DNA of 26,338 nucleotides from Mycobacteriales bacterium (GTDB lineage Bacteria > Actinomycetota > Actinomycetes > Mycobacteriales > QHCD01): assembly GCA_051000035.1 (NCBI GenBank), contig JBPCOR010000100.1, forward strand, positions 1 to 26,338, read 5' to 3'. Position numbers and translations under genes: made by a program. Below the pieces are notes generated by a model. That model was not told the origin of the DNA, ran no database searches, and saw nothing but the letters and a program-made list of their open reading frames with translations. Shown here piece by piece: positions 12,278 to 25,669 of this stretch; within the stretch, counting starts at the first letter, position 1; each line of letters begins with the position of its first letter.

Positions 12278-13150
12278 TCACACGGCGGTCGGCGCGTGCC
12301 GTGCCACCGGCGTCTGTACCTGTGCCTGTGCAAGCACCCAGTCACACCACTCGCGGACGCCGGCACCCGTGCGAGCGCTGACCTCGATCGTCCGGACGGT
12401 CGGATTCACCGCCGTGAGATTCCGGCGGAAGCCGGCAAGCTCGAAGTCCAGGTGCGGCAGCAGGTCGATCTTGTTGATGACCACCAGGTCCGCGGAGCGG
12501 AACATGACCGGATACTTCAGCGGCTTCTCCTCCCCCTCGGTGACCGAGAAGACCATCGCCCGGGCATGCTCGCCTACGTCGAACTCCGCCGGGCAGACCA
12601 AATTGCCGACGTTCTCGATCATGACGAGGTCGAGATCGTCGATCGGGAGCCGGATCAGTGCGGACCGGACCATCGGCGCGTCGAGATGGCACTCGCCGCC
12701 GTACCCGTTGCCGGTGTTGACCAGCTCGATCGCGGCACCGAACCCCTCGAGCCGGTCCGCGTCCAGGCTGGTCTCTATGTCGCCCACGATGACGCCGATG
12801 CGCAGCCGGTCGGCGAGCACACGCAGGGTCTCGCGCAGCAGCGTGGTCTTGCCGGCACCGGGTGATGACATCAGGTTGATCGCGCGGGCCTGGGCTCGAG
12901 CGAGATCGGCCCGATTCGCCGCGGCGAGCCGGTCGTTCTCATCGAAGATGCGTTCGAGCACCTCGATCCGCTCCGGACCGGTCTGGTATGCCGAGTGGTC
13001 GCCGACGTCGCGCTCGTTGCCGTGCTGGTGATCGGCAGCGTGATCGGGACGGTGCTCGTGCTCGCCGTCGTGCTCGTGCTCGCCGTCGTGCTCGTGGTCA
13101 TGATCGTGGTCATGATCGTGCCCATCGTCGTGCCGATGGAAGCGACCCAT
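12278..13150 (-). CDS. hypB: Hydrogenase nickel-insertion GTPase with His-rich N-terminus
   Basis: MSSPGAGKTTLL, GGECHLDA, ENVGNLVCPAEFDVGE, GEEKPLKYP, NKID. Confidence 0.97.
   Translation of the reverse strand: MGRFHRHDDGHDHDHDHDHEHDGEHEHDGEHEHRPDHAADHQHGNERDVGDHSAYQTGPERIEVLERIFDENDRLAAANRADLARAQARAINLMSSPGAGKTTLLRETLRVLADRLRIGVIVGDIETSLDADRLEGFGAAIELVNTGNGYGGECHLDAPMVRSALIRLPIDDLDLVMIENVGNLVCPAEFDVGEHARAMVFSVTEGEEKPLKYPVMFRSADLVVINKIDLLPHLDFELAGFRRNLTAVNPTVRTIEVSARTGAGVREWCDWVLAQAQVQTPVARHAPTAV
13052..13120. repeat. In-frame tandem duplications within the hypB His-rich tail (2.5x18 bp and 2x12 bp)
   Basis: GTGCTCGTGCTCGCCGTC at 13052 and 13070, partial at 13088; GTCATGATCGTG at 13097 and 13109. 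Confidence 0.85.
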
Positions 13151-13153
13151 CTT

Positions 13154-13495
13154 TCACACCTTTCCGAGGTCGAGCGCGGTCACGAGGAACTCCTCGCCGG
13201 CCAGCACCGCGCTGTCCAGGCCGCCACATGCCGGGCACCCGAAGGTCACGTTGTTTCCGAGGTCGAATTCGTCGCCGCAGGCGCGGCACTTCAGCCGGGC
13301 GGCGACCCGCTCGATCTGCAGCTCCGCTCCCTCCAGGGTGGTCTCGGCGACGACGAGTGACCAGCAGAAGAGCAGCGTGTCCGGGATGACCTGACGGAGT
13401 TGACCGATCCGCACGTGGATGACGTCGACACTGCGGTCCTCCGCCCGGCGGGTGACGATGTCGGCGATCGCCCCGCAGAGCGAAAGCTCATGCAC
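13154..13495 (-). CDS. hypA: Hydrogenase nickel chaperone
   Basis: (M)HELSLC, RIGQLRQVIPDTLLFCW, CRAC and CPAC zinc motifs, GEEFLV. Confidence 0.96.
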   Translation of the reverse strand: MHELSLCGAIADIVTRRAEDRSVDVIHVRIGQLRQVIPDTLLFCWSLVVAETTLEGAELQIERVAARLKCRACGDEFDLGNNVTFGCPACGGLDSAVLAGEEFLVTALDLGKV

Positions 13496-14579: not shown

Positions 14580-15659
14580 GTGTCTGCAACAACCGAGGAA
14601 CGTTCAGGCAAGCACGAGCAAGAGGACGAAGGTGTCGTTCATATTCTCTGGATGAACGGTGGCCTGAGCTGTGACGGAGATTCGGTCGCGCTCACCGCAG
14701 CAACCCAGCCGAGCATCGAGGAGATCGTGCTCGGTGCCCTCCCCGGCCTGCCCAAGGTCGCGGTCCACTGGCCGCTGATCGACTTCGAATCCGGACCGGA
14801 GCAGGGCGCGGACACCTTCATCGAGTGGTGGCACAAGGCAGATCGCGGTGAACTCGAGCCCTTCGTGCTCGTCGTCGAGGGATCGATCCCGAACGAGGAG
14901 TTGAACAAGGACAACGGCGGCTACTTCTGCGGCTTCGGCAACGACCCGGACACCGGCGAGGTGCGCACGACCAACGAGTGGCTGGACCGGTTGTCGAAGA
15001 AGGCCACCGCGATCATCGCCGTCGGCACCTGCGCCACCTACGGCGGCATCCACGCCATGGCCGGCAACCCGACCGGCGCCATGGGCGTTCCCGACTTCCT
15101 CGGGTGGGACTGGAAGTCCAAGGCCGGCCTGCCCATCGTCTGCGTGCCGGGCTGCCCGATCCAGCCGGACAACCTCTCCGAGACGATCCTGTACCTGCTG
15201 TACCAGGTCGCCGGGCAGGCACCGATGATCCCGCTGGACGCCGAGCTGCGCCCGCGCTGGCTGTTCGAGGCGACCGTGCACGAGGGCTGCGACCGGGGCG
15301 GCTACTACGAGCAGGGCCAGTTCGCGACCGAGTACGGCTCGCCGTTGTGCCTGGTCAAGCTCGGCTGCTGGGGCCCGGTCGTCAACTGCAATGTGCCCAA
15401 GCGCGGCTGGATCAACGGCATCGGCGGGTGCCCGAACGTCGGCGGCATCCGCATCGGCTACACCATGCCGGGCTTCCCGGACAAGTTCATGCCCTTCATG
15501 GACGAGCCACCGGGCGGCAAGGTGTCCTCGACCGCCAGCGGGGCCTACGGAAAGGTCATCCGTACGATGCGGAAATTCACCCAGAGCACGTTGAACAAGG
15601 AGCCGTCATGGCGTGTCCGCGGCCCCGAACTGAAGACCGGCTACCGGAAGGGGCGATGA
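14580..15659 (+). CDS. hhyS: Group 1h [NiFe]-hydrogenase small subunit (medial-cluster CxxC altered)
   Basis: GLSCDGDSVALTAATQP, GTCATYGGI, VPGCP, TVHEGCDR, CLVKLGCWGP; no Tat signal; start re-called at GTG 14580 after GGAGGAGG; GGIRIGYTMPGFPD where CIGC is expected. Confidence 0.95.
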   Translation: MSATTEERSGKHEQEDEGVVHILWMNGGLSCDGDSVALTAATQPSIEEIVLGALPGLPKVAVHWPLIDFESGPEQGADTFIEWWHKADRGELEPFVLVVEGSIPNEELNKDNGGYFCGFGNDPDTGEVRTTNEWLDRLSKKATAIIAVGTCATYGGIHAMAGNPTGAMGVPDFLGWDWKSKAGLPIVCVPGCPIQPDNLSETILYLLYQVAGQAPMIPLDAELRPRWLFEATVHEGCDRGGYYEQGQFATEYGSPLCLVKLGCWGPVVNCNVPKRGWINGIGGCPNVGGIRIGYTMPGFPDKFMPFMDEPPGGKVSSTASGAYGKVIRTMRKFTQSTLNKEPSWRVRGPELKTGYRKGR

Positions 15660-15664
15660 CCTAG

Positions 15665-17470
15665 ATGACCACGACGGCAGCGCGACCGAGCGAAGCATCC
15701 AGCACCACGGCCAAGAGCGACCTCACCGAGATGGCGTGGGATCCCATCACGCGGATCGTGGGCAGTCTCGGCATCTACACAAAGATCGACTTCAAGAAGA
15801 AGGAAGTGGCGGAGTGCTACAGCACATCGTCGATCTTCCGTGGCTACAGCATCTTCATGAAGGGCAAGGACCCGCGCGACGCGCACTTCATCACCAGCCG
15901 TATCTGCGGCATCTGCGGTGACAACCACGCCACCTGCTCGGTCTATGCACAGAACATGGCCTACGGCGTACACCCGCCGGCGCTGGGCGAGTGGATCATC
16001 AACCTCGGCGAGGCCGCCGAATACATGTTCGACCACAACATCTACCAGGAGAATCTGGTCGGGGTCGACTTCTGCGAGAGGATGGTCGGCGAGACCAACC
16101 CGAGCGTGCTGCAGAAGGCCAACAACACGCAGGCCCCGCACGCCGCCGACCACGGCTACCGGACCATCGGCGACATCATGCGGGCGCTCAACCCCCTCGA
16201 AGGCGACTTCTACCGCGAGGCGCTGCAGGTCAGCCGCTACACGCGCGAGATGTTCTGCCTGATGGAAGGCCGGCACGTCCACCCCTCGACGCTGTATCCC
16301 GGCGGGGTCGGCACCACGGCGACGATCCAGCTCTTCACCGACTACCTCACCCGGCTGATGCGCTACATCGAGTTCATGAAGCGTGTGGTTCCGCTGCACG
16401 ACGACCTGTTCGACTTCTTCTACGACGCCATCCCGGGCTATGAGAACGTCGGCCTGCGGCGCACCCAGCTGATCTGCTGGGGCGCGCTGAACGACCCGGC
16501 GCACTGCGACTTCAAGTACGAGCACATGACCAACTGGGGTCGCAAGGCATTCGTCAGCCCGGGCGTCGTCGTCGATGGCAAGCTGGTCACCAACGACCTG
16601 GTCGAGATCAATCTCGGTATCCGCATCCTGCTCGGCAGCTCGTACTACAAGGGCTGGGAGAACGAGCCGATGTTCGTCAATCGCGACCCGCTCGGCAACC
16701 CGGTCGACCGCAACCACCCGTGGAACCAGACGACCCTCCCGGACCCGCAGAAGCGCAACTTCGACGACAAGTACAGCTGGGTGATGTCGCCGCGCTGGTT
16801 CGACGGCAAGGACTACCTTGCGGCCGACACCGGTGGCGGCCCGATCGCTCGGCTGTGGGCGACGGCGCTGGGCGGCCTGGTCGACATGGGCTATGTCAAG
16901 TCCACCGGGCACAGCGTCGAGATCAACCTGCCGAAGACGATGAACAAGCCCGAGGTCAACCTGGAGTGGAAGATCCCGAAGTGGAGCAACGCACTCGAGC
17001 GGGGCCGCGCCCGGACCTACTTCCAGGCCTACGCCGCGGCTGCTGCGCCGTACTTCTGTGAGCAGGCGCTCGCCGAGGTCCGTGCCGGGCACACCAAGAC
17101 GTGGAGCTCGTTCGAGGTGCCGGACGAGGCGGCGAGCTGTGGCTTCACCGAGGCCGTGCGCGGCGTGCTCAGCCACCACATGGTGATCAAGGGCGGCAAG
17201 ATCGCCAATTACCACCCCTACCCCCCGACGCCATGGAACGCGAGCGTCCGGGACGAGTACGGCACCCCCGGCCCGTATGAGGACGCCGTACAGAACACGC
17301 CGATCTTCGAGGAGAACCCACCGGACAAGTTCAAGGGCATTGACATCATGCGGACGGTTCGCAGCTTCGACCCGTGCCTGCCGTGCGGGGTGCACATGTA
17401 CCTCGGGACGGGCAAGACGCTGGAGACCATCCACAACCCCGCTTCGATGCCGACGACGCTGGCGGTCTGA
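15665..17470 (+). CDS. hhyL: Group 1h [NiFe]-hydrogenase large subunit
   Basis: L1 TSRICGICGDNH and L2 SFDPCLPCGVH as in group 1h; 24-residue extension after the L2 His. Confidence 0.97.
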   Translation: MTTTAARPSEASSTTAKSDLTEMAWDPITRIVGSLGIYTKIDFKKKEVAECYSTSSIFRGYSIFMKGKDPRDAHFITSRICGICGDNHATCSVYAQNMAYGVHPPALGEWIINLGEAAEYMFDHNIYQENLVGVDFCERMVGETNPSVLQKANNTQAPHAADHGYRTIGDIMRALNPLEGDFYREALQVSRYTREMFCLMEGRHVHPSTLYPGGVGTTATIQLFTDYLTRLMRYIEFMKRVVPLHDDLFDFFYDAIPGYENVGLRRTQLICWGALNDPAHCDFKYEHMTNWGRKAFVSPGVVVDGKLVTNDLVEINLGIRILLGSSYYKGWENEPMFVNRDPLGNPVDRNHPWNQTTLPDPQKRNFDDKYSWVMSPRWFDGKDYLAADTGGGPIARLWATALGGLVDMGYVKSTGHSVEINLPKTMNKPEVNLEWKIPKWSNALERGRARTYFQAYAAAAAPYFCEQALAEVRAGHTKTWSSFEVPDEAASCGFTEAVRGVLSHHMVIKGGKIANYHPYPPTPWNASVRDEYGTPGPYEDAVQNTPIFEENPPDKFKGIDIMRTVRSFDPCLPCGVHMYLGTGKTLETIHNPASMPTTLAV

Positions 17471-17472
17471 GC

Positions 17473-18360
17473 GTGGCCCCATCGGGCGGCGACATCGGCG
17501 AGCAGGTGGAGGCCCTGCTGGGGCGGTTGACCCAGCAGGGCGGGGAGATGGCTGGGACGACGGCGGACGAGCTGGTGCGCCTGCTCGTCGAGTTCTACGG
17601 TGCGGGGCTCGAGCGCATCGTCGACGTGATCGGTGCCGACCGTCCCGAGCTGCTGCACACTCTCGCCGACGACCCGCTCGTCGAGAGCCAGCTCATCCTG
17701 CACGGGCTGCACCCGCTCGGTCCCGACGAGCGGATCGAGCAGGCCCTGGACAAGGTGCGTCCCTACCTCGGCTCACACTCCGGCGGCGTGGCGTACCTCG
17801 GCATCGACGACGAGGGGGTCGCGCACCTGCGCCTGGACGGCAGCTGCAGCGGATGCCCGTCGTCGACGGTCACGGTCCGGCTCACTATCGAGGAAGCCGT
17901 CCTCGGCGCGGCGCCGGAGCTGACCGGGATCGACGTGGCCGGCCAGACCGAGGAAGCACCGAAACCGCTGTTGCAGATCGGCAAGCGACCCGGCGCCCCC
18001 GAACCCGCGCCGGCGGCGGCCGGGCCGGTGTGGTTGCACCCCTCGGCGATGGAGCTACCCGCCGATGGTCAGGCCAGGCGGGTGCACCTGGACGGGCGGC
18101 CGGTCTTGATGTGCCGGCTCGGTGAGACCTACTACGCCTACGCCGACAGCTGTCCGTCCTGTGGCGAGTCGCTCGTGAGCACCTCCCCTGACGCCGGCGC
18201 GCTGGACGGCGACCTGCTGAGCTGCTCGTCCTGCAGTACCCGCTATGACGTACGGCTGGCAGGGCGGGCGGCTGACCGGGCGGGCGGGCACCTCGACCCG
18301 CTGCCGCTGCTCGACGACGTGTCAGGTATCCGGGTGGCGCTGCTCGCCGAGGTGGTGTGA
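17473..18360 (+). CDS. hhyE: NifU-like Fe-S protein with a C-terminal Rieske-like four-Cys domain
   Basis: HGLHP..RIEQALDKVRPYLGSHSGGV...GSCSGCPSS (Nfu CxxC); CPSC...CSSC; start re-called at GTG 17473. Confidence 0.8.
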   Translation: MAPSGGDIGEQVEALLGRLTQQGGEMAGTTADELVRLLVEFYGAGLERIVDVIGADRPELLHTLADDPLVESQLILHGLHPLGPDERIEQALDKVRPYLGSHSGGVAYLGIDDEGVAHLRLDGSCSGCPSSTVTVRLTIEEAVLGAAPELTGIDVAGQTEEAPKPLLQIGKRPGAPEPAPAAAGPVWLHPSAMELPADGQARRVHLDGRPVLMCRLGETYYAYADSCPSCGESLVSTSPDAGALDGDLLSCSSCSTRYDVRLAGRAADRAGGHLDPLPLLDDVSGIRVALLAEVV

Positions 18361-19028
18361 TGGCCGGCGCGGCCGGCCTGCGGCGGTTCGTATCCGCACC
18401 CGAACCGGAGCTGCCGTTCGCGCTGCGCCAACCCAAGCCGCGCGGTGAGGGCTGCGAGATGTGCGGAGCCGACATCACCGACGAGCACTCCCACGTCGTG
18501 AATGTCGACTCCCGCAGCCTGCTGTGCGCCTGCCGGCCCTGCTACCTGCTGTTCACCCAGGAGGGCGCCGGCCGCGGCAACTACCGGGCGGTGCCCGACC
18601 GCTATCTCACCGACCCGGACTCAGACATCAGCGAGGGCCAGTGGGAGTCGCTGCAGGTCCCCGTCGCGATGGCCTACTTCTTCTACAACTCCGCGCAGGA
18701 CCGCATCATCGCGCAGTACCCGAGCCCGGCCGGCGCCACCGAGTCGCTGCTCGACCTGTCCGCCTGGGAAACGATCGCCGCGGAGAACCCGCTCGCCGCG
18801 GCACTGACACCCGACGTCGAAGCCCTCATCGTCCGGCGCTCGCAGCAGGGCAACGAGACCTATCTGGTCCCCATCGACACCTGCTACGAGCTGGTCGGGC
18901 GGGTGCGGATGCACTGGACCGGATTCGACGGCGGTTCGGAGGCCCGGCAGGACATCGACGAGTTCTTCGACGCCGTTCGCGACCGCAGCCGCCCGCTCGA
19001 GCACCGCGGCGGACCCGGCGATGGCTGA
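18357..19028 (+). CDS. Hydrogenase-associated Cys/His-rich protein (DUF5947/HhaA-like)
   Basis: CEMCG..HSHVV..LLCACRPCYLLF; YPSPAGATES; typical position after hhyE. The start could be ATG 18360. Confidence 0.8.
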   Translation: MMAGAAGLRRFVSAPEPELPFALRQPKPRGEGCEMCGADITDEHSHVVNVDSRSLLCACRPCYLLFTQEGAGRGNYRAVPDRYLTDPDSDISEGQWESLQVPVAMAYFFYNSAQDRIIAQYPSPAGATESLLDLSAWETIAAENPLAAALTPDVEALIVRRSQQGNETYLVPIDTCYELVGRVRMHWTGFDGGSEARQDIDEFFDAVRDRSRPLEHRGGPGDG

Positions 19029-19671
19029 GCTGGTCTTCGACTGCGTCGACGCACGGTCCGATCGCTACGCCGCCGGCCCGACGCTCAATTTCCGCCTGCG
19101 CATCGCCGAGACGAGCGGCGATCGGATCCATGCGATCGCGTTGCGCTGCCAGCTGCGGATCGAGCCCCAGAAGCGCCGTTATTCGTCCTCGGAGGCCGAT
19201 CACCTCGGCGACCTCTTCGGTGACCAGTCACGCTGGGCGACGACGCTGAAACCGCTGCAGTTCGCGTACGTGTCGGTCATGGTCCCAAGCTTCACGGGCA
19301 GTACGGAGATTGACCTACCCGTGCCGTGCACGTACGACCTGGAGATCGCGTCCACCAGCTATTTCCACGCGCTGTCCGATGGCGAGATCCCGCTGCTACT
19401 GCTGTTCAGCGGCACGATGTTCACCAAGGGCGAGACCGGTTTCACGGTCGGGCAGGTGCCGTGGCACAAGGAGACGAACTACCGGCTGCCGGTCGCCGAA
19501 TGGCGCGCGATGATGGACGGATTCTTCCCCAACAGCGGCTGGCTGCGCCTGCACCGGGAGACACTCGAGGCGCTGGGGGCCTTCAAGAACGCGCGCGCCC
19601 TGCCGACCTTCGAGCAGACGATCACCGCACTTCTAGACGAGGCGGCCGCGTCGACGGACCACCCGGCATGA
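19021..19671 (+). CDS. Hydrogenase-associated protein (DUF6084/HhaB-like)
   Basis: YAAGPTLNFRL, IALRCQLRIEPQKRRY, PCTYDLEIA, LLFSGTMF, VPWHKE. Confidence 0.8.
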   Translation: MAELVFDCVDARSDRYAAGPTLNFRLRIAETSGDRIHAIALRCQLRIEPQKRRYSSSEADHLGDLFGDQSRWATTLKPLQFAYVSVMVPSFTGSTEIDLPVPCTYDLEIASTSYFHALSDGEIPLLLLFSGTMFTKGETGFTVGQVPWHKETNYRLPVAEWRAMMDGFFPNSGWLRLHRETLEALGAFKNARALPTFEQTITALLDEAAASTDHPA

Positions 19672-21149
19672 ACGAGGAGGCGCCGGGAAGCCCGACGGGA
19701 CCGGCCGGCGCCGTGGGCGCCGCGAGCCCGTTCGATGCCGCCCGCTCCGTGGCCGACGCCGTGCTCTACGAGGGCTACGTGCTGTATCCGTACCGTGCGT
19801 CGTCGCGGAAGAACCAGTCCCGTTGGCAGTTCGGCGTACTGATGCCGCCGTCCTACGTCGAGGCGGACGCATCCGAGCGGTCCGCGTGCCAGACCGAGAT
19901 CGTGTTCGAGCCCAGGGCGGGGTCGGTGCTGCGGGTGCAGTTACGCTTCCTGCATGTCGCACACCGCACGGGCGGCGACCTGCCGGAGTGGGATGAGACG
20001 GTGGAGCGCGAGCTGGAATTCACGGTTCCGGTCGGGCCACTTCGAGACGCTATGCACGTGCATTCGTTCTCATTCCAGGGCACGACCACGGTGGACGGCA
20101 AGGGTGTGCGGCGCCAGACCCGCGACGTCGATGGTGTCATCACCGTTGCCGTGACCGAGGTGCCCGGGCCGTTCGGCGCGCTGCGGCTGACGAGCCGGGT
20201 GGAGAACCGTACCGCCGTCGAGCCGGCCGGCCCCGCCGGCCCCGCCGGGCCGGCAGCTGCGGCAGAGCCGGCGGCGGCGGCAGAGCCGGGACAGCGCGAA
20301 CAGCCAGCCGATCGCGACACCGCCCTGCGCCACGCCCTCGTCGCCGCCCACAGCATGTACGCCCTGGATGCGGGCAGCTTCCTGTCGATGACCGACCCGC
20401 CGGAGTGGGCGAGACCCGCCGTCGAGGCGTGCGACAATGTCGGCACCTGGCCGGTACTGGCCGGATCCGATTCCGTCGTGCTCTGCTCGCCGATCATCCT
20501 GGGCGATCACCCCGAGATCGCGCCGGAGAGCCCAGGCGACCTCTACGACGCGACCGAGATCGACGAGATCCTGACGCTGCGCACGATGGCACTGACCGAC
20601 GCCGAGAAGATCGAGGCGCGAGCGACCGACCCGCGCTCGGCAGCCGTCATCGACCACGTCGACGCGCTGCCGCAGGAGCACCTGGACCGGCTGCACGGGG
20701 CGCTGCGCTACCTGCGCCAGGTCACCGGCGACGAGGGACCGCAGACCATCAAGACGCCCACGGCTGGCTCTCCCGCCGGGCTCACGATGCCAGGCGGCGA
20801 GCCGGCCGCCGTGATGACGCCAGGCACACCGTGGTGGGATCCCGGCGCCGACGGCTCGGTGTCGCCGGACTCCGACGCGATCGTCATCGACGGCGTGCGC
20901 GTCTCGCGCGGCAGCCGGGTGCGGCTGCGCCCGGGCGCCCGGCGTACCGACGCCCAGGACCTGTTCCTCAGCGGGCGCACCGCCACCGTCGAGGCGGTCT
21001 TCTTCGACGTCGACGGCGAGCAACATCTGGGCGTGACACCCGACGACGACGCAGAGCTGGCCGAGATCCAGCGGTGGCACGGGCGCTTCCTCTATTTCGC
21101 GCCGTACGAGGTCGAACCGATCCCCGAGCAGAGGCCGGCGCGCCCGTGA
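19668..21149 (+). CDS. Hydrogenase-associated protein (HhaC-like)
   Basis: ADAVLYEGYVLYPYRASSRKNQSRWQFG, SPIILGDHPEIAPES.GDLYDATEIDEILTLR, RFLYFAPYEVEP; start re-called at ATG 19668 (ATGA overlap). Confidence 0.8.
   Translation: MNEEAPGSPTGPAGAVGAASPFDAARSVADAVLYEGYVLYPYRASSRKNQSRWQFGVLMPPSYVEADASERSACQTEIVFEPRAGSVLRVQLRFLHVAHRTGGDLPEWDETVERELEFTVPVGPLRDAMHVHSFSFQGTTTVDGKGVRRQTRDVDGVITVAVTEVPGPFGALRLTSRVENRTAVEPAGPAGPAGPAAAAEPAAAAEPGQREQPADRDTALRHALVAAHSMYALDAGSFLSMTDPPEWARPAVEACDNVGTWPVLAGSDSVVLCSPIILGDHPEIAPESPGDLYDATEIDEILTLRTMALTDAEKIEARATDPRSAAVIDHVDALPQEHLDRLHGALRYLRQVTGDEGPQTIKTPTAGSPAGLTMPGGEPAAVMTPGTPWWDPGADGSVSPDSDAIVIDGVRVSRGSRVRLRPGARRTDAQDLFLSGRTATVEAVFFDVDGEQHLGVTPDDDAELAEIQRWHGRFLYFAPYEVEPIPEQRPARP
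20226..20285 (+). repeat. In-frame low-complexity repeats (about 3x9 bp and 2x18 bp) encoding a Pro/Ala/Gly linker
   Basis: GCCGGCCCC at 20226 and 20235, variant at 20244; CCGGCAGCTGCGGCAGAG 20250 and CCGGCGGCGGCGGCAGAG 20268. Confidence 0.75.
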
Positions 21150-21655
21150 GGAAGGTGCTGGTGGCGGGTGTCGGCAACATCTTCCTCGGCGACGACGCGT
21201 TCGGTGTCGAGGTTGCCGCTCGAATGGCGGGCACCCCCCTGCCGGAGGGTGTCGAGCTGGTCGACTTCGGCATCCGCGGCGTGCACCTGGCCTATCAGCT
21301 GCTCGACGGCTACGACGTGCTGGTGCTCATCGATGCCGCGCCCCGCGGGCAGCCGCCGGGCACCGTCTCGTTGCTCGAGGTCGACCAGAGCGAGATCGAG
21401 GACGCGGCCGCTGCGATCCAAGGCGGCGAGTCCCCCCTGGTCGACGCCCACGGCCTGGAACCGGGCGCGATCCTGAAGATGCTCGGGTCGCTCGGCGGGC
21501 GGGTGTCCAGGGTGCTGGTCGTTGCGTGCGAGCCCGAATCCGTGGCGGAGGGGCTCGGCCTCAGCGACCCGGTCACGGCCGCGATACCGCGGGCGATCGC
21601 ATTGGTGGAGAAGGTCATGCACACCGAGTATCCGACGAAGGAGGTGTCGAAATGA
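21146..21655 (+). CDS. Hydrogenase maturation endopeptidase (HybD/HupD family)
   Basis: VAGVGNIFLGDDAFGVEV, LIDAA, DAHG; GTG 21146 overlapping the upstream stop. Confidence 0.93.
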   Translation: MRKVLVAGVGNIFLGDDAFGVEVAARMAGTPLPEGVELVDFGIRGVHLAYQLLDGYDVLVLIDAAPRGQPPGTVSLLEVDQSEIEDAAAAIQGGESPLVDAHGLEPGAILKMLGSLGGRVSRVLVVACEPESVAEGLGLSDPVTAAIPRAIALVEKVMHTEYPTKEVSK

Positions 21656-21834: not shown

Positions 21835-24261
21835 GTGGGCGTCGAACCGACGGTGGTGGGCCAGCGGCGGGGCGCTGAGTCACGGGCCCGGCAGCGGATC
21901 GCCGTCCGTGGTGTCGTGCAGGGTGTCGGATTCCGCCCGTTCGTCTATGCCCTCGCTCGCGAGCTCGCGCTGAGTGGCCTGGTCGGCAACACCGACGACG
22001 GCGTGCTGATCGAGGTGGAGGGCCGGCCCGGCGCGCTCGGGCAGTTCGCGGCTCGGCTGGCCGGCGAGGCGCCACCGCTCGCGCAGGTCGACGACGTCAC
22101 GGTCGAGACCGTCGCCTGCCGAGGGGGCACCGACTTCGTCATCCAGGACTCGCGCGGCGGGCCGGGACGGACGCTCGTCTCGCCGGATGTCGCGACCTGC
22201 GCCGCGTGTCTCGCCGAGATGGCCGACTCGGCCGACCGCCGCTATCGCCACCCGTTCATCAGCTGTACGAACTGCGGGCCGCGCTTCACGATCATCGTCG
22301 ACCTGCCGTATGACCGGCCAGCCACGACGATGGCCGGGCTCCCCCTGTGCGCCGACTGCGCCACCGAATACGCCGATCCCGCCGACCGCCGGTTTCACGC
22401 CCAGACCGTCGCCTGCCCGGCGTGCGGGCCGACGGTGACCCTGCGGTGCCCGGGAGCGCCTGATCTCGCCGGCGACGCCGCCGTCACCGAGGCGCGCCGG
22501 CTGATCTGCTCGGGCGGTGTCCTCGCCGTGAAGGGCCTCGGCGGCTACCACCTCGCCTGCGACGCGACCGACGAGGCGGCCGTCGGCGCCCTGCGCCAAC
22601 GCAAGGACCGCGGCGACAAGCCGTTCGCCGTCATGGTTGCCGACCTCGCGACCGCAGCGCTTGTCGCCGCCATCTCGCCGGCCGAGCGCGACCTGCTCGC
22701 CGACCCGCGGCGCCCGGTCGTCCTGCTGGCCAAGCGGTCCGGCTCGTCCGTGCCGCTCGCCGGGTCGGTGGCGCCGGACAGCCCCGATATCGGCGTGCTG
22801 CTCGCCTATACCCCGCTGCACCACCTGCTCTTCGGGTTGCCCGGCGACCCACCCGGGCCGCGGGCCCTGGTCATGACCAGCGGCAACGTCGCGGGCGAGC
22901 CGATCGTCACCGACGACGCGCAGGCGCAGGCGCGGCTTGGGTGCCTCGCCGACGCGTGGCTCGCGCACGACCGACCGATCCAGGTGCCGTGCGACGATTC
23001 GGTGATCCGGGTCGCCGCCGGTGCGCAGTTGCCGGTTCGCCGCTCCCGCGGTTACGCGCCCCTCCCCGTCGCGCTGCCGGTGCAGGTGCGGTCCGCCCTG
23101 GCCGTCGGCGGTGACCTCAAGAACACGTTCAGCCTTGCCGAGGGTGGCTACGCGTGGATGTCGGCACACGTCGGCGACATGGACGACCTGCAGACGCGGC
23201 GCGCCTTCGAGGCGGCCACGGCGCAGCTCCAGTCGATCACCGGCGTGCGTCCCGAGGTGCTCGTGGCCGACCGGCACCCGGCGTACCGGAGCGCGGCGTG
23301 GGCGAGGCGCAATCCCGGCGGGCTGCCGGTGCGAACGGTGCAGCACCACCACGCCCACATTGCTTCGGCGATGGCCGAGAACGGCCACGACGGTGCGGCG
23401 CGGGTGATCGGGTTCGCCTTCGACGGCACCGGCTACGGCGACGACGGCGCGGTCTGGGGCGGCGAGGTCCTGCTCGCCGACTACGACGGCTACGAGCGGG
23501 CGGCCCAGCTGCGTTACGTCTCGCTGCCCGGCGGCGACGCCGGGGTGCGCAACCCGTGCCGGATGGCGCTCTCGCACCTGCACGGCGCCGGTGTGCCGTG
23601 GGATCCCGCGCTTCCGTGCGTCGCGGCGTGTACTCCGGCCGAACGCTCGGTGCTCGCCCGGCAGCTGCAGACCGGCCTGCGCTGCACCCCGACGTCGAGC
23701 ATGGGACGGCTCTTCGACGCGGTGTCATCCCTCGCCGGCGTGTGCCATCGCGTCGCCTACGAAGCCGAGGCGGCGATGCGCTTCGAGGGGCTGGCACGTA
23801 CCGCGATCGAGGGCTGCGACCGGCCCTACGCCTTCGGGTTGAGCACCGACGCGGGCGGCTGGCCGCTGACGGCCGACCCGGGACCGGTGATCGCCGCCGC
23901 CGCCCGCGACGTGCTCGCCGGGGTGCCGGCCGAGATCGTCGCCGCCCGCTTCCACCTCGGCGTCGTCGCACTGGTGGGCGACCTGGCCCGATCGCTGCGG
24001 GCCCGCACCGGCCTGGACACGGTCGCCCTGTCCGGCGGCGTGTTCCTCAACGTCCTGCTCACGACGCTCGCCGCCGACCGGCTGCGCGACGACGGCTTCG
24101 CCGTGTTGCGCCATCGGGTCGTACCGCCGAGTGACGCCGGCCTCGCTCTCGGGCAGATCGTCGTCGCCGCCCGGCGGCAGCCAGCAGGCTCGCCCACCGA
24201 CAGCACCCCCGAGGACAGCGCGAATCCGTCGACCGACAGAAGGAGAACGCCATGTGCCTAG
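21835..24261 (+). CDS. hypF: Carbamoyltransferase
   Basis: GVVQGVGFRPFVY, zinc fingers CAAC/CTNCGPR/CADC/CPACGP, KGLGGYHL, HHHAH, DGTGYG, SSMGRLFDA. Confidence 0.97.
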   Translation: MGVEPTVVGQRRGAESRARQRIAVRGVVQGVGFRPFVYALARELALSGLVGNTDDGVLIEVEGRPGALGQFAARLAGEAPPLAQVDDVTVETVACRGGTDFVIQDSRGGPGRTLVSPDVATCAACLAEMADSADRRYRHPFISCTNCGPRFTIIVDLPYDRPATTMAGLPLCADCATEYADPADRRFHAQTVACPACGPTVTLRCPGAPDLAGDAAVTEARRLICSGGVLAVKGLGGYHLACDATDEAAVGALRQRKDRGDKPFAVMVADLATAALVAAISPAERDLLADPRRPVVLLAKRSGSSVPLAGSVAPDSPDIGVLLAYTPLHHLLFGLPGDPPGPRALVMTSGNVAGEPIVTDDAQAQARLGCLADAWLAHDRPIQVPCDDSVIRVAAGAQLPVRRSRGYAPLPVALPVQVRSALAVGGDLKNTFSLAEGGYAWMSAHVGDMDDLQTRRAFEAATAQLQSITGVRPEVLVADRHPAYRSAAWARRNPGGLPVRTVQHHHAHIASAMAENGHDGAARVIGFAFDGTGYGDDGAVWGGEVLLADYDGYERAAQLRYVSLPGGDAGVRNPCRMALSHLHGAGVPWDPALPCVAACTPAERSVLARQLQTGLRCTPTSSMGRLFDAVSSLAGVCHRVAYEAEAAMRFEGLARTAIEGCDRPYAFGLSTDAGGWPLTADPGPVIAAAARDVLAGVPAEIVAARFHLGVVALVGDLARSLRARTGLDTVALSGGVFLNVLLTTLAADRLRDDGFAVLRHRVVPPSDAGLALGQIVVAARRQPAGSPTDSTPEDSANPSTDRRRTPCA

Positions 24262-24538
24262 CGGTACCCGGCAAGGTCCTGAGCATCTGGGACAAGGACG
24301 CGACCCGGATGGCGAGCGTCGACTTCGGCGGGATGGTCAAGGAGGTCTGCCTGGAATTCGTCCCTGACATCGAGGTCGGCGAATACACCATCGTGCACGT
24401 GGGCTTCGCGCTCCAACGCCTGGACGAGAAGTCCGCGCTGGAGACGCTCGAACTGTTCAAGACATTGGGCGAGCTGGATATGGAATTCGGCGACGCGTGG
24501 GAGCGCGCCGCCGCCGAGTCAGGACAGGAGGCCACCTC

Positions 24539-24542
<4 letters not shown>
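24252..24542 (+). CDS. hypC: Hydrogenase chaperone
   Basis: MCLAVPG, IVHVGFA. Confidence 0.96.

Positions 24543-25661
<1,119 letters not shown>

Positions 25662-25669
<8 letters not shown>

What the first reader, a model, noticed from the sequence alone, without database searches (positions are those of the whole stretch)
15450..15461. Hydrogenase small subunit has lost two medial Fe-S cysteines (CIGC to RIGY)
Seen: GGC ATC CGC ATC GGC TAC ACC gives GIRIGYT (R291 and Y294 counting from GTG 14580). Established: this segment is GICIGCT in group 1h enzymes and the CxxC supplies two ligands of the medial cluster. Each change is a single transition from TGC. The other two medial Cys (C270, C284), the proximal and distal ligands, both HhyL motifs and the maturation genes look intact, with no frameshift in the locus. 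Options: recent inactivation of H2 oxidation, a rewired electron relay, or sequence error.
Basis: partly seen in the sequence, partly recalled or inferred. Interest (0 to 1): 0.75.

Follow-up and report, generated by a model that had tools for sequence, protein, structure and literature searches.

The report
Hydrogenase cysteine loss private to one assembly
The deposited sequence does replace two iron-sulfur cysteines of an air-hydrogen-scavenging hydrogenase, but only this one metagenome assembly shows the change; the same organism elsewhere reads normal cysteine at the second codon and probably at the first, so it is most likely an assembly artefact or a rare dead allele.

Summary
Codons 291 and 294 of hhyS (window 15450-52, 15459-61) read CGC and TAC. 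This gives GGIRIGYT where the solved group 1h enzyme (PDB 5AA5) and every relative checked have GGICI[G/A]CT. These two residues are half of the four-Cys site of the medial [4Fe-4S] cluster.

The change is not a trait of the organism. The window is a whole contig of a 72%-complete rock-metagenome MAG. Logan contigs from four public runs (three studies) carry the same species. Three of them carry the window's haplotype at every neutral site covered. All contigs read G (Cys) at 15460, and one read-through very probably reads T at 15450.

The same runs also disagree with the window at a second patch in hhyL (17004, 17041, 17049). There the window has G447 and P462, residues seen in none of 120 homologues.

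The private changes are 4 non-synonymous to 1 synonymous and fall into two short patches. HypF, RpoB, DnaK and GyrA look normal.

No x-I-[G/A]-Y variant exists in 185,579 species genomes or in the JGI metagenome contigs.

Verdict: an ordinary group 1h locus with assembly-private, unselected changes. Functional rewiring is very unlikely. Raw reads of the source run would settle whether this is an artefact or a rare null allele.

The parts
14580..15659 (+). hhyS, small subunit of a group 1h [NiFe] hydrogenase (359 aa, no twin-arginine leader)
   Evidence: translation; E 9e-157 to 5AA5_A; homologues carry PF01058 and PF14720
15450..15452 (+). Codon 291, CGC (Arg), where all homologues have Cys (first Cys of the medial CxxC)
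   Evidence: X4 contig 15362-15458 differs from the window by one letter, inferred to be this one
15459..15461 (+). Codon 294, TAC (Tyr), where homologues have Cys (second Cys of the CxxC)
   Evidence: Every Logan contig of four runs reads G at 15460; no run holds the A-containing 31-mers
15387..15431 (+). The two retained medial-cluster cysteines, C270 (15387-89) and C284 (15429-31)
   Evidence: Cys positions; alignment to 5AA5 and 1CC1
15665..17470 (+). hhyL, large subunit (601 aa), with L1 RICGICGDNH, L2 DPCLPCGVH and a C-terminal tail for the protease
   Evidence: (5AA5_C, 1068 bits)
17003..17050 (+). Second patch of assembly-private letters: 17004 G (G447; population reads A = Asp), 17041 T (synonymous; population G), 17049 C (P462; population T = Leu)
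   Evidence: table 3 (all four runs differ from the window)
17374..18360 (+). NifU-like accessory gene (start uncertain)
   Evidence: PF01106
18357..19671 (+). Two conserved accessory genes (DUF5947 at 18357-19028, DUF6084 at 19021-19671)
20840..21655 (+). HupD/HycI-type maturation protease (start uncertain)
   Evidence: PF01750
21835..26336 (+). hypF (21835-24261), hypC (24252-24542), hypD (24497-25669), hypE (25485 to contig end, cut)
   Evidence: HypF deviates at only 2 of 314 conserved columns
12278..13495 (-). hypB (12278-13150) and hypA (13154-13495), divergent from hhySL
   Evidence: PF02492 and PF01155

Best explanation
This is an ordinary group 1h (Hhy-type, atmospheric-H2) [NiFe]-hydrogenase locus. 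The letters that give RIGY are private to this one metagenome-assembled contig and do not represent the gene as the species carries it. I judge it most likely that the assembly captured non-native letters while threading a stretch of hhyS shared almost base for base by many co-occurring organisms. Those letters would come from error-bearing or damaged template molecules, or from a very minor variant. On this reading the organism's working enzyme has the normal CIGC and a normal medial [4Fe-4S] cluster. Taken at face value, the encoded protein keeps only two of four medial ligands. It could not hold a cubane cluster, so the proximal-to-distal electron relay would be cut and the enzyme dead or nearly so. 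Shown: the letters are absent from the species elsewhere, and the private changes look unselected and clustered. Inferred: their technical origin.
For: (1): the window's haplotype occurs at organism-level depth in run X2 (about 33-51x, rock), X4 (about 4-6x, soil, another study) and X5 (about 4-6x, sediment, a third study). These pieces have zero differences from the window at every neutral site they cover. X1 holds a sister strain that differs at about 9 synonymous sites and 1 non-synonymous site. In all four runs every contig over 15460 reads G (17, 22, 15 and 24 contigs; other_depth equals all_depth).
(2): X4 contig 15362-15458 carries the organism-diagnostic T15392 at organism depth. It spans 15450, differs from the window by exactly one letter, and ends where the 31-mers become shared with other organisms. 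That is expected only if 15450 is the canonical T.
(3): none of the three sampled 31-mers from 15430-15490 (every 31-mer in this stretch contains A15460) is held by any indexed run, whereas 20 runs hold words of the gene.
(4): a second private patch in hhyL gives G447 (N or D in 120/120 homologues) and P462 (L, V or M in 120/120). Organism-level contigs of all four runs read D and L there.
(5): the private changes are 4 non-synonymous to 1 synonymous, against 1 to 9 for the natural X1-versus-window polymorphism (Fisher one-sided p = 0.017; 0.041 without 15450). Five changes falling into one patch of 11 nt or less and one of 46 nt or less has p = 4.5e-5 under random placement.
(6): HypF, RpoB, DnaK and GyrA show no excess of private deviations, so neither the genome nor the hydrogenase system is generally decaying.
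(7): the sister MAGs G001 and G002 break inside hhyS and lack its C-terminal part. Logan contigs of X1 and X2 break at 15390 and 15485. In X1 and X2 total contig depth there is 6,000-9,000x against 40-200x for the organism. This stretch is an assembly trouble spot.
(8): no x-I-[G/A]-Y variant in 185,579 species genomes or in 241 million JGI metagenome records.
Against: Assemblers do not invent letters, so reads with both changes must have existed. Two random read errors 10 nt apart at usable multiplicity are very unlikely, so a special cause is needed (a duplicated damaged template, very low local coverage, or a minor real variant). Hitting both cysteines of one CxxC looks biological rather than random, although the finding was selected for being striking. 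Logan contigs drop rare variants, and none of the four runs is proven to be the assembly's source, so absence there does not prove absence in the source reads. The k-mer look-up rested on only three sampled words. The letter at 15450 in the population is inferred, not listed by the tool.
Confidence: 0.55

Rival explanations
1. A genuine null allele. The clone behind this MAG really carries C291R and C294Y in HhyS, plus D447G and L462P in HhyL. H2 oxidation was inactivated very recently by missense changes, and the maturation genes have not yet decayed.
For: The letters must come from real reads. A 4:1 non-synonymous to synonymous ratio is what neutral evolution of a dead gene predicts. Single Cys-to-Arg changes at the same first cysteine occur in four unrelated public records, one of them in a clearly degraded gene (L022), and one homologue has C-to-F at the second cysteine. 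So such lesions do occur in deposited sequences. The assembled 72% of the genome has no second hydrogenase. A contig may have assembled through the shared stretch precisely because private letters made its path unique.
Against: The same haplotype in three other studies is canonical. Five differences in 57 nt against none in about 1,300-1,500 nt of other organism-level sequence would need two independent multi-nucleotide mutation events and no ordinary ones (clustering p = 4.5e-5). HypF is fully conserved. One hit would be enough to kill the enzyme.
Confidence: 0.35
2. A functional rewiring. The enzyme works without a canonical medial cluster, either by long-range tunnelling from the proximal to the distal cluster, or with an unusual cluster held by C270, C284 and Arg or Tyr.
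For: All other ligands, both HhyL motifs and the whole maturation set are intact. From general knowledge: Arg can ligate a [2Fe-2S] cluster in biotin synthase, and high-affinity hydrogenases turn over slowly, so a slow relay might be tolerated.
Against: The variant is not fixed even within the species. It has no recurrence in any collection scanned and none among the 120 nearest homologues or the 14 relative loci read. It comes with a helix-unfriendly Pro and a never-seen Gly in HhyL. In the only broad ligand-substitution survey found, no multiply substituted small subunit gave detectable activity (PMC4070099).
Confidence: 0.04
3. A chimeric contig. The two patches were taken from a different, rare organism or a decayed extra copy of hhySL in the community, and were spliced in where the assembly graph is tangled.
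For: Both patches lie in protein blocks conserved across community members. In X1 and X2, foreign contig depth at patch 1 is 30-200 times the organism's depth.
Against: Between and around the changed letters the sequence equals the organism's own haplotype. No donor contig with these letters appears in four runs. No nearby template explains them. The MAG has only one hhyS.
Confidence: 0.05

Closest known systems
Actinobacterial-type (group 1h/5) [NiFe] hydrogenase of Cupriavidus necator / Ralstonia eutropha, HofK-HofG, PDB 5AA5
   Same: The small subunit matches at E 9e-157 and the large subunit at 1068 bits. There is no Tat leader, the first cluster motif is C-x-x-D, the distal site is His plus 3 Cys, and the L1 and L2 motifs are identical. 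The 27-residue block around the site is identical except at the two cysteines.
   Different: 5AA5 has CIGC and the window has RIGY. The window also has G447 and P462 where 5AA5 has D and L.
Mycobacterium smegmatis Hhy (group 1h) and its accessory and maturation genes
   Same: Same enzyme class and the same kind of gene neighbourhood: hhySL followed by NifU-like and DUF genes, a protease and hypFCDE, with hypAB nearby. The function of this class, scavenging trace H2, is from the literature (PMC6883350, PMC10017518).
   Different: Not compared residue by residue here. No mycobacterial variant lacking the medial cysteines is known to me.
[NiFeSe] hydrogenase of Desulfomicrobium baculatum, PDB 1CC1 (all-Cys medial [4Fe-4S])
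   Same: The four medial positions align..DC....WC.. and CIGC against the window's C270, C284, R291 and Y294.
   Different: A distant group (E 1e-33), periplasmic, with selenocysteine at the active site.
Engineered Fe-S ligand substitutions in Alteromonas macleodii HynS (Yonemoto et al. 2014, PMC4070099)
   Same: These are replacements of cluster-ligating cysteines in a [NiFe] small subunit. They give the experimental expectation for what such changes do.
   Different: There, single swaps to Asp, His, Asn or Gln were often tolerated, and no multiply substituted construct was active. Here there are two swaps, to residues outside the set tested there (Arg, Tyr), in one cluster.
Sporadic C-to-R variants at the same codon in public records (L021 Actinomycetota MAG, L022 Streptomyces sp., L023 Sphingomonas MAG, L024 JGI contig)
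   Same: The same T-to-C change at the first cysteine of the CxxC.
   Different: All four keep the second cysteine. L021 and L022 are frameshifted or degraded copies; L023 and L024 look intact.

Membership tests
Group 1h (Hhy / actinobacterial-type) [NiFe] hydrogenase, small subunit | Full-length similarity to a solved group 1h small subunit | tested here: met
   5AA5_A, E 9.3e-157, residues 19-356 aligned. The next best PDB chain scores 1e-33.
Group 1h (Hhy / actinobacterial-type) [NiFe] hydrogenase, small subunit | No twin-arginine export signal | tested here: met
   the N-terminus before the first cluster motif has no RR motif (read directly from the sequence).
Group 1h (Hhy / actinobacterial-type) [NiFe] hydrogenase, small subunit | Proximal cluster site with Asp in place of the second Cys (C-x-x-D) | tested here: met
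   LSCDGDS, with C31 and D34 plus C151 and C192. That Asp is the ligand comes from the literature (PMC5364354).
Group 1h (Hhy / actinobacterial-type) [NiFe] hydrogenase, small subunit | Four-cysteine medial cluster site (C ... C ... CxxC) | tested here: not met
   only C270 and C284 remain in the assembled sequence; R291 and Y294 replace the CxxC. Same-species contigs from other runs read Cys at 294 and probably at 291.
Group 1h (Hhy / actinobacterial-type) [NiFe] hydrogenase, small subunit | Distal cluster site with His plus three Cys | tested here: met
   H234, C237, C257 and C263 align with 5AA5.
Group 1h [NiFe] hydrogenase, large subunit partner | L1 (TSRICGICGDNH) and L2 (SFDPCLPCGVH) signatures and a C-terminal tail | tested here: met
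Group 1h hydrogenase locus | Accessory and maturation genes alongside (NifU-like, DUF5947, DUF6084, protease, hypFCDE, hypAB) | tested here: met
   All frames are open; hypE is cut by the contig end.
Group 1h hydrogenase | High-affinity H2 oxidation activity | not testable with these tools
   Needs an H2 uptake assay.

The most novel reading that the evidence does not exclude
The RIGY allele is real and is the working gene of this rock-dwelling actinobacterial clone. On this reading its group 1h hydrogenase oxidises H2 without a canonical medial [4Fe-4S] cluster, either by slow long-range electron transfer or with a non-cubane centre held by two Cys plus Arg or Tyr. That would be the first natural three-cluster-type [NiFe] small subunit with a gap in its relay.
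Probability: 0.03. Interest if true: 0.8.

Novelty: not a real feature. Interest (0 to 1): 0.15.

Why it matters
If the change were real and functional, it would overturn the view that the three-cluster relay is indispensable in uptake hydrogenases, and it would bear on how trace-gas scavengers tune electron flow. As things stand the lesson is practical. hhyS and hhyL are so conserved among co-occurring soil and rock bacteria that metagenome assemblies break there or pick up non-representative letters. Single-MAG 'ligand loss' calls in these genes should therefore not be used to infer loss of atmospheric H2 oxidation without read-level support. Marker-gene surveys of H2 oxidisers would still count this genome as a normal group 1h carrier, and that is probably correct.

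Tried and rejected
(a) A second hhyS or another [NiFe] hydrogenase in the genome: none in the 72%-complete MAG.

(b) The same variant in relatives: all 14 relative loci read (from 12 family- or order-level genomes) have C..C (two of those loci, L009 and L017, come from the unpublished genome G015 and the conclusion does not depend on them). The same-genus genome G001 and G002 lack this part of the gene.

(c) The variant anywhere in public collections: no x-I-[G/A]-Y hit in genome contigs or metagenome contigs. Four records have R-I-[G/A]-C.

(d) Runs holding the variant 31-mers: none listed (only 3 sampled words).

(e) Same-species protein copies in the 15-billion-protein collection: the window's HhyL sits in a 210-member cluster, but none of the 15 listed members is above 91% identical. 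The window's HhyS was not found by exact look-up with two start choices.

(f) General decay or a general error load. HhyS has no other private deviation at conserved columns: E127, V128 and M330 recur in the nearest relatives, and position 140 varies within that clade. HypF is normal. RpoB and DnaK are unexceptional (the DnaK set includes one G015 locus). In GyrA, G000 has 10 private changes and its sister G001 has 6, all conservative.

(g) Templated (quasi-palindrome or repeat-directed) mutation: no nearby donor covers the changed letters beyond chance matches of 10-12 nt.

(h) A first attempt at the RpoB and DnaK control picked wrong reading frames in these high-GC loci. It was redone with BLAST-guided frames.

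(i) Structure prediction was not run. The tools return no coordinates, so it could not add to the 5AA5 alignment.

Full report
**Observation.**
The window carries hhyS at 14580-15659 and hhyL at 15665-17470 on the plus strand. Codon 291 of hhyS (15450-52) is CGC and codon 294 (15459-61) is TAC, so the peptide reads GGIRIGYTMPGFPD. A search of solved structures gives the group 1h small subunit of Cupriavidus necator (5AA5 chain A) at E 9e-157. The 27-residue block around the site is identical except that 5AA5 has C at both positions. The alignment with the all-Cys medial site of the [NiFeSe] enzyme 1CC1 places C270, C284 and these two positions as the four medial ligands. The proximal site (C31, D34, C151, C192) and the distal site (H234, C237, C257, C263) are complete. 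Relatives mostly use TGC at both codons, so each change is a single transition.

**How unusual it is.**
A motif search of the 120 nearest homologues (89% identity or less) found C at both positions in 118. One has C..F, and one did not match the motif search. In the full alignment position 291 is C in 120/120 and position 294 is C in 119/120. All 14 loci read from family- and order-level genomes have C..C (two of these loci are from the unpublished genome G015 and are not needed for the conclusion). A degenerate pattern for any x-I-[G/A]-Y form of the block found nothing in 185,579 species genomes or in the JGI metagenome contigs. The R-I-[G/A]-x form found four records, all R..C. Two are in frameshifted or degraded genes (L021, L022) and two are in intact genes (L023, L024). 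The double change is therefore unique to this window.

**What the sequence comes from.**
The window is one whole contig (C317) of a MAG of 2.45 Mb in 395 contigs, 72% complete. The MAG holds only this one [NiFe] hydrogenase. The locus is otherwise complete. It has NifU-like, DUF5947 and DUF6084 genes, a protease and hypFCDE downstream, and hypA and hypB upstream on the other strand.

**Same-species evidence.**
Twenty public runs hold parts of hhySL. Logan contigs of four runs were laid on 14580-17470.
- X2 (rock), X4 (soil, another study) and X5 (sediment, a third study) hold pieces at organism-level depth with zero differences from the window at every neutral site they cover.
- X1 (rock, about 200x) holds a sister strain that differs at about nine synonymous sites and one non-synonymous site.
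- At 15460 every contig in every run reads G (17, 22, 15 and 24 contigs), which gives TGC, Cys.
- The organism-specific contigs of X1 and X2 stop at 15390 and resume at 15485. In between, contig depth in those runs is 6,000-9,000x against 40-200x for the organism, because many community members share this stretch.
- X4 has one contig (15362-15458) with the organism-diagnostic T15392 at organism depth. It crosses 15450 and differs from the window by one letter. It ends exactly where its 31-mers stop containing anything organism-specific. I infer that the one letter is T at 15450. The tool did not list it, apparently because rows need about 31 letters on each side.
- A look-up of the 61 bases whose 31-mers all contain A15460 found no run (three sampled words, so a weak test).

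**A second private patch.**
The same table shows that all four runs, including the organism-level contigs, differ from the window at 17004, 17041 and 17049. In the window these give G447, a synonymous Ala459, and P462 in HhyL. The runs read Asp and Leu. Among 120 HhyL homologues position 447 is always N or D and position 462 is always L, V or M; 5AA5 has D and L.

The assembly therefore differs from its own population at five letters, in two patches of 11 nt or less and 46 nt or less. Four of the five are radical amino-acid changes to residues never seen in the family. About 1,300-1,500 nt of other organism-level sequence show no difference.

The private set is 4 non-synonymous to 1 synonymous, against 1 to 9 for the natural difference between X1 and the window (Fisher one-sided p = 0.017; 0.041 if 15450 is left out). 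The clustering has p = 4.5e-5 under random placement.

**Is the genome or the system decaying?**
- HhyS has no other private deviation at conserved columns. E127, V128 and M330 recur in its nearest relatives, and position 140 varies within that clade.
- HypF deviates at 2 of 314 conserved columns, against a median of 3 for homologues.
- RpoB (5) and DnaK (3) private singletons are unexceptional for a lineage without close kin in the set.
- In GyrA a relative-rate comparison with the same-genus genome gives 10 against 6 private changes, all conservative.

There is thus no general error load and no long relaxed selection on the hydrogenase system. The anomaly is confined to two conserved blocks of hhyS and hhyL.

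**Assembly context.**
The same-genus MAG G001 ends its contig at residue 245 of hhyS, and G002 has only a fragment. Neither bin contains the C-terminal part. Together with the Logan breaks, this marks the stretch as an inter-genome repeat that assemblers handle badly. No nearby repeat could have templated the changes.

**Function if taken at face value.**
With two of four ligands gone, the medial [4Fe-4S] site cannot hold a cubane cluster, and the relay between the proximal and distal clusters is broken. In the broad ligand-substitution survey of A. macleodii HynS, single swaps were often tolerated, but no multiply substituted construct gave detectable activity (PMC4070099). The expected phenotype is an inactive or unstable enzyme.

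**Conclusion.**
- The species carries the canonical Cys at 294 (shown) and very probably at 291 (inferred).
- The RIGY letters, like G447 and P462, are private to this assembly and behave like changes that selection has not seen.
- My odds: about 55% that they are non-native letters captured by the assembly (error-bearing or damaged templates, or a very minor variant, in a graph-tangled region); about 35% that they are a genuine null allele of the clone behind the MAG; about 5% a chimeric contig; and about 4% functional rewiring.
- The main point against a purely technical origin is that reads with both changes must have existed. The main point against a real allele is that two multi-nucleotide events would have to occur with no ordinary divergence.
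- Only raw reads of the source run can decide. Read laying had Logan contigs only for these runs, and its single call is used.

Noticed in passing
L021:6054-6088(-), L022:2442-2476(+), L023:4751-4785(+), L024:331-365(-): The first cysteine of the medial CxxC is Arg (TGC to CGC or CGT) in four unrelated public records. Two sit in frameshifted or degraded hhyS copies (an Actinomycetota MAG and a Streptomyces genome). Two sit in apparently intact genes (a Sphingomonas MAG and a JGI contig). Homologue P0065 has C-to-F at the second cysteine. These could be errors, null alleles, or natural three-Cys ([3Fe-4S]-type) medial sites.
   Followed up: partly
window 14580-17470 versus runs X2, X4, X5: Rock, soil and sediment metagenomes from three different studies hold this organism with an identical haplotype at every neutral site they cover in hhySL. 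That is unusually uniform for an environmental species. It may mean a very widespread clone, related sampling, or a shared contaminant.
   Followed up: no
window 16043-16045, 16112-16114, 16130-16132 (HhyL Y127, Q150, Q156): The species carries Tyr, Gln and Gln where at least 95% of 120 homologues have Phe, Glu and Glu. Y127 and Q156 are also present in the X1 strain's contig, so they are real lineage traits. Position 150 is His in X1.
   Followed up: partly
G001:C64 (L012) and G002:C114 (L014): The two closest MAGs break their contigs inside hhyS (at residue 245, and as a fragment covering residues 99-162). The conserved C-terminal part is missing from both bins. This shows that the gene is a recurrent assembly breakpoint in metagenomes.
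   Followed up: yes
G008 loci L013/L018 (hhyS) and L053-L055 (rpoB): A same-family genome in 3 contigs has hhyS, rpoB, rpoC and gyrA each split into several frames. This looks like indel errors of a long-read assembly rather than real pseudogenes.
   Followed up: no
window 23191-23193 (HypF residue 453): HypF has Gln where 115 of 119 homologues, including the eight nearest, have Ala. It is a single private deviation and was not checked against population contigs.
   Followed up: no
   Followed up: partly
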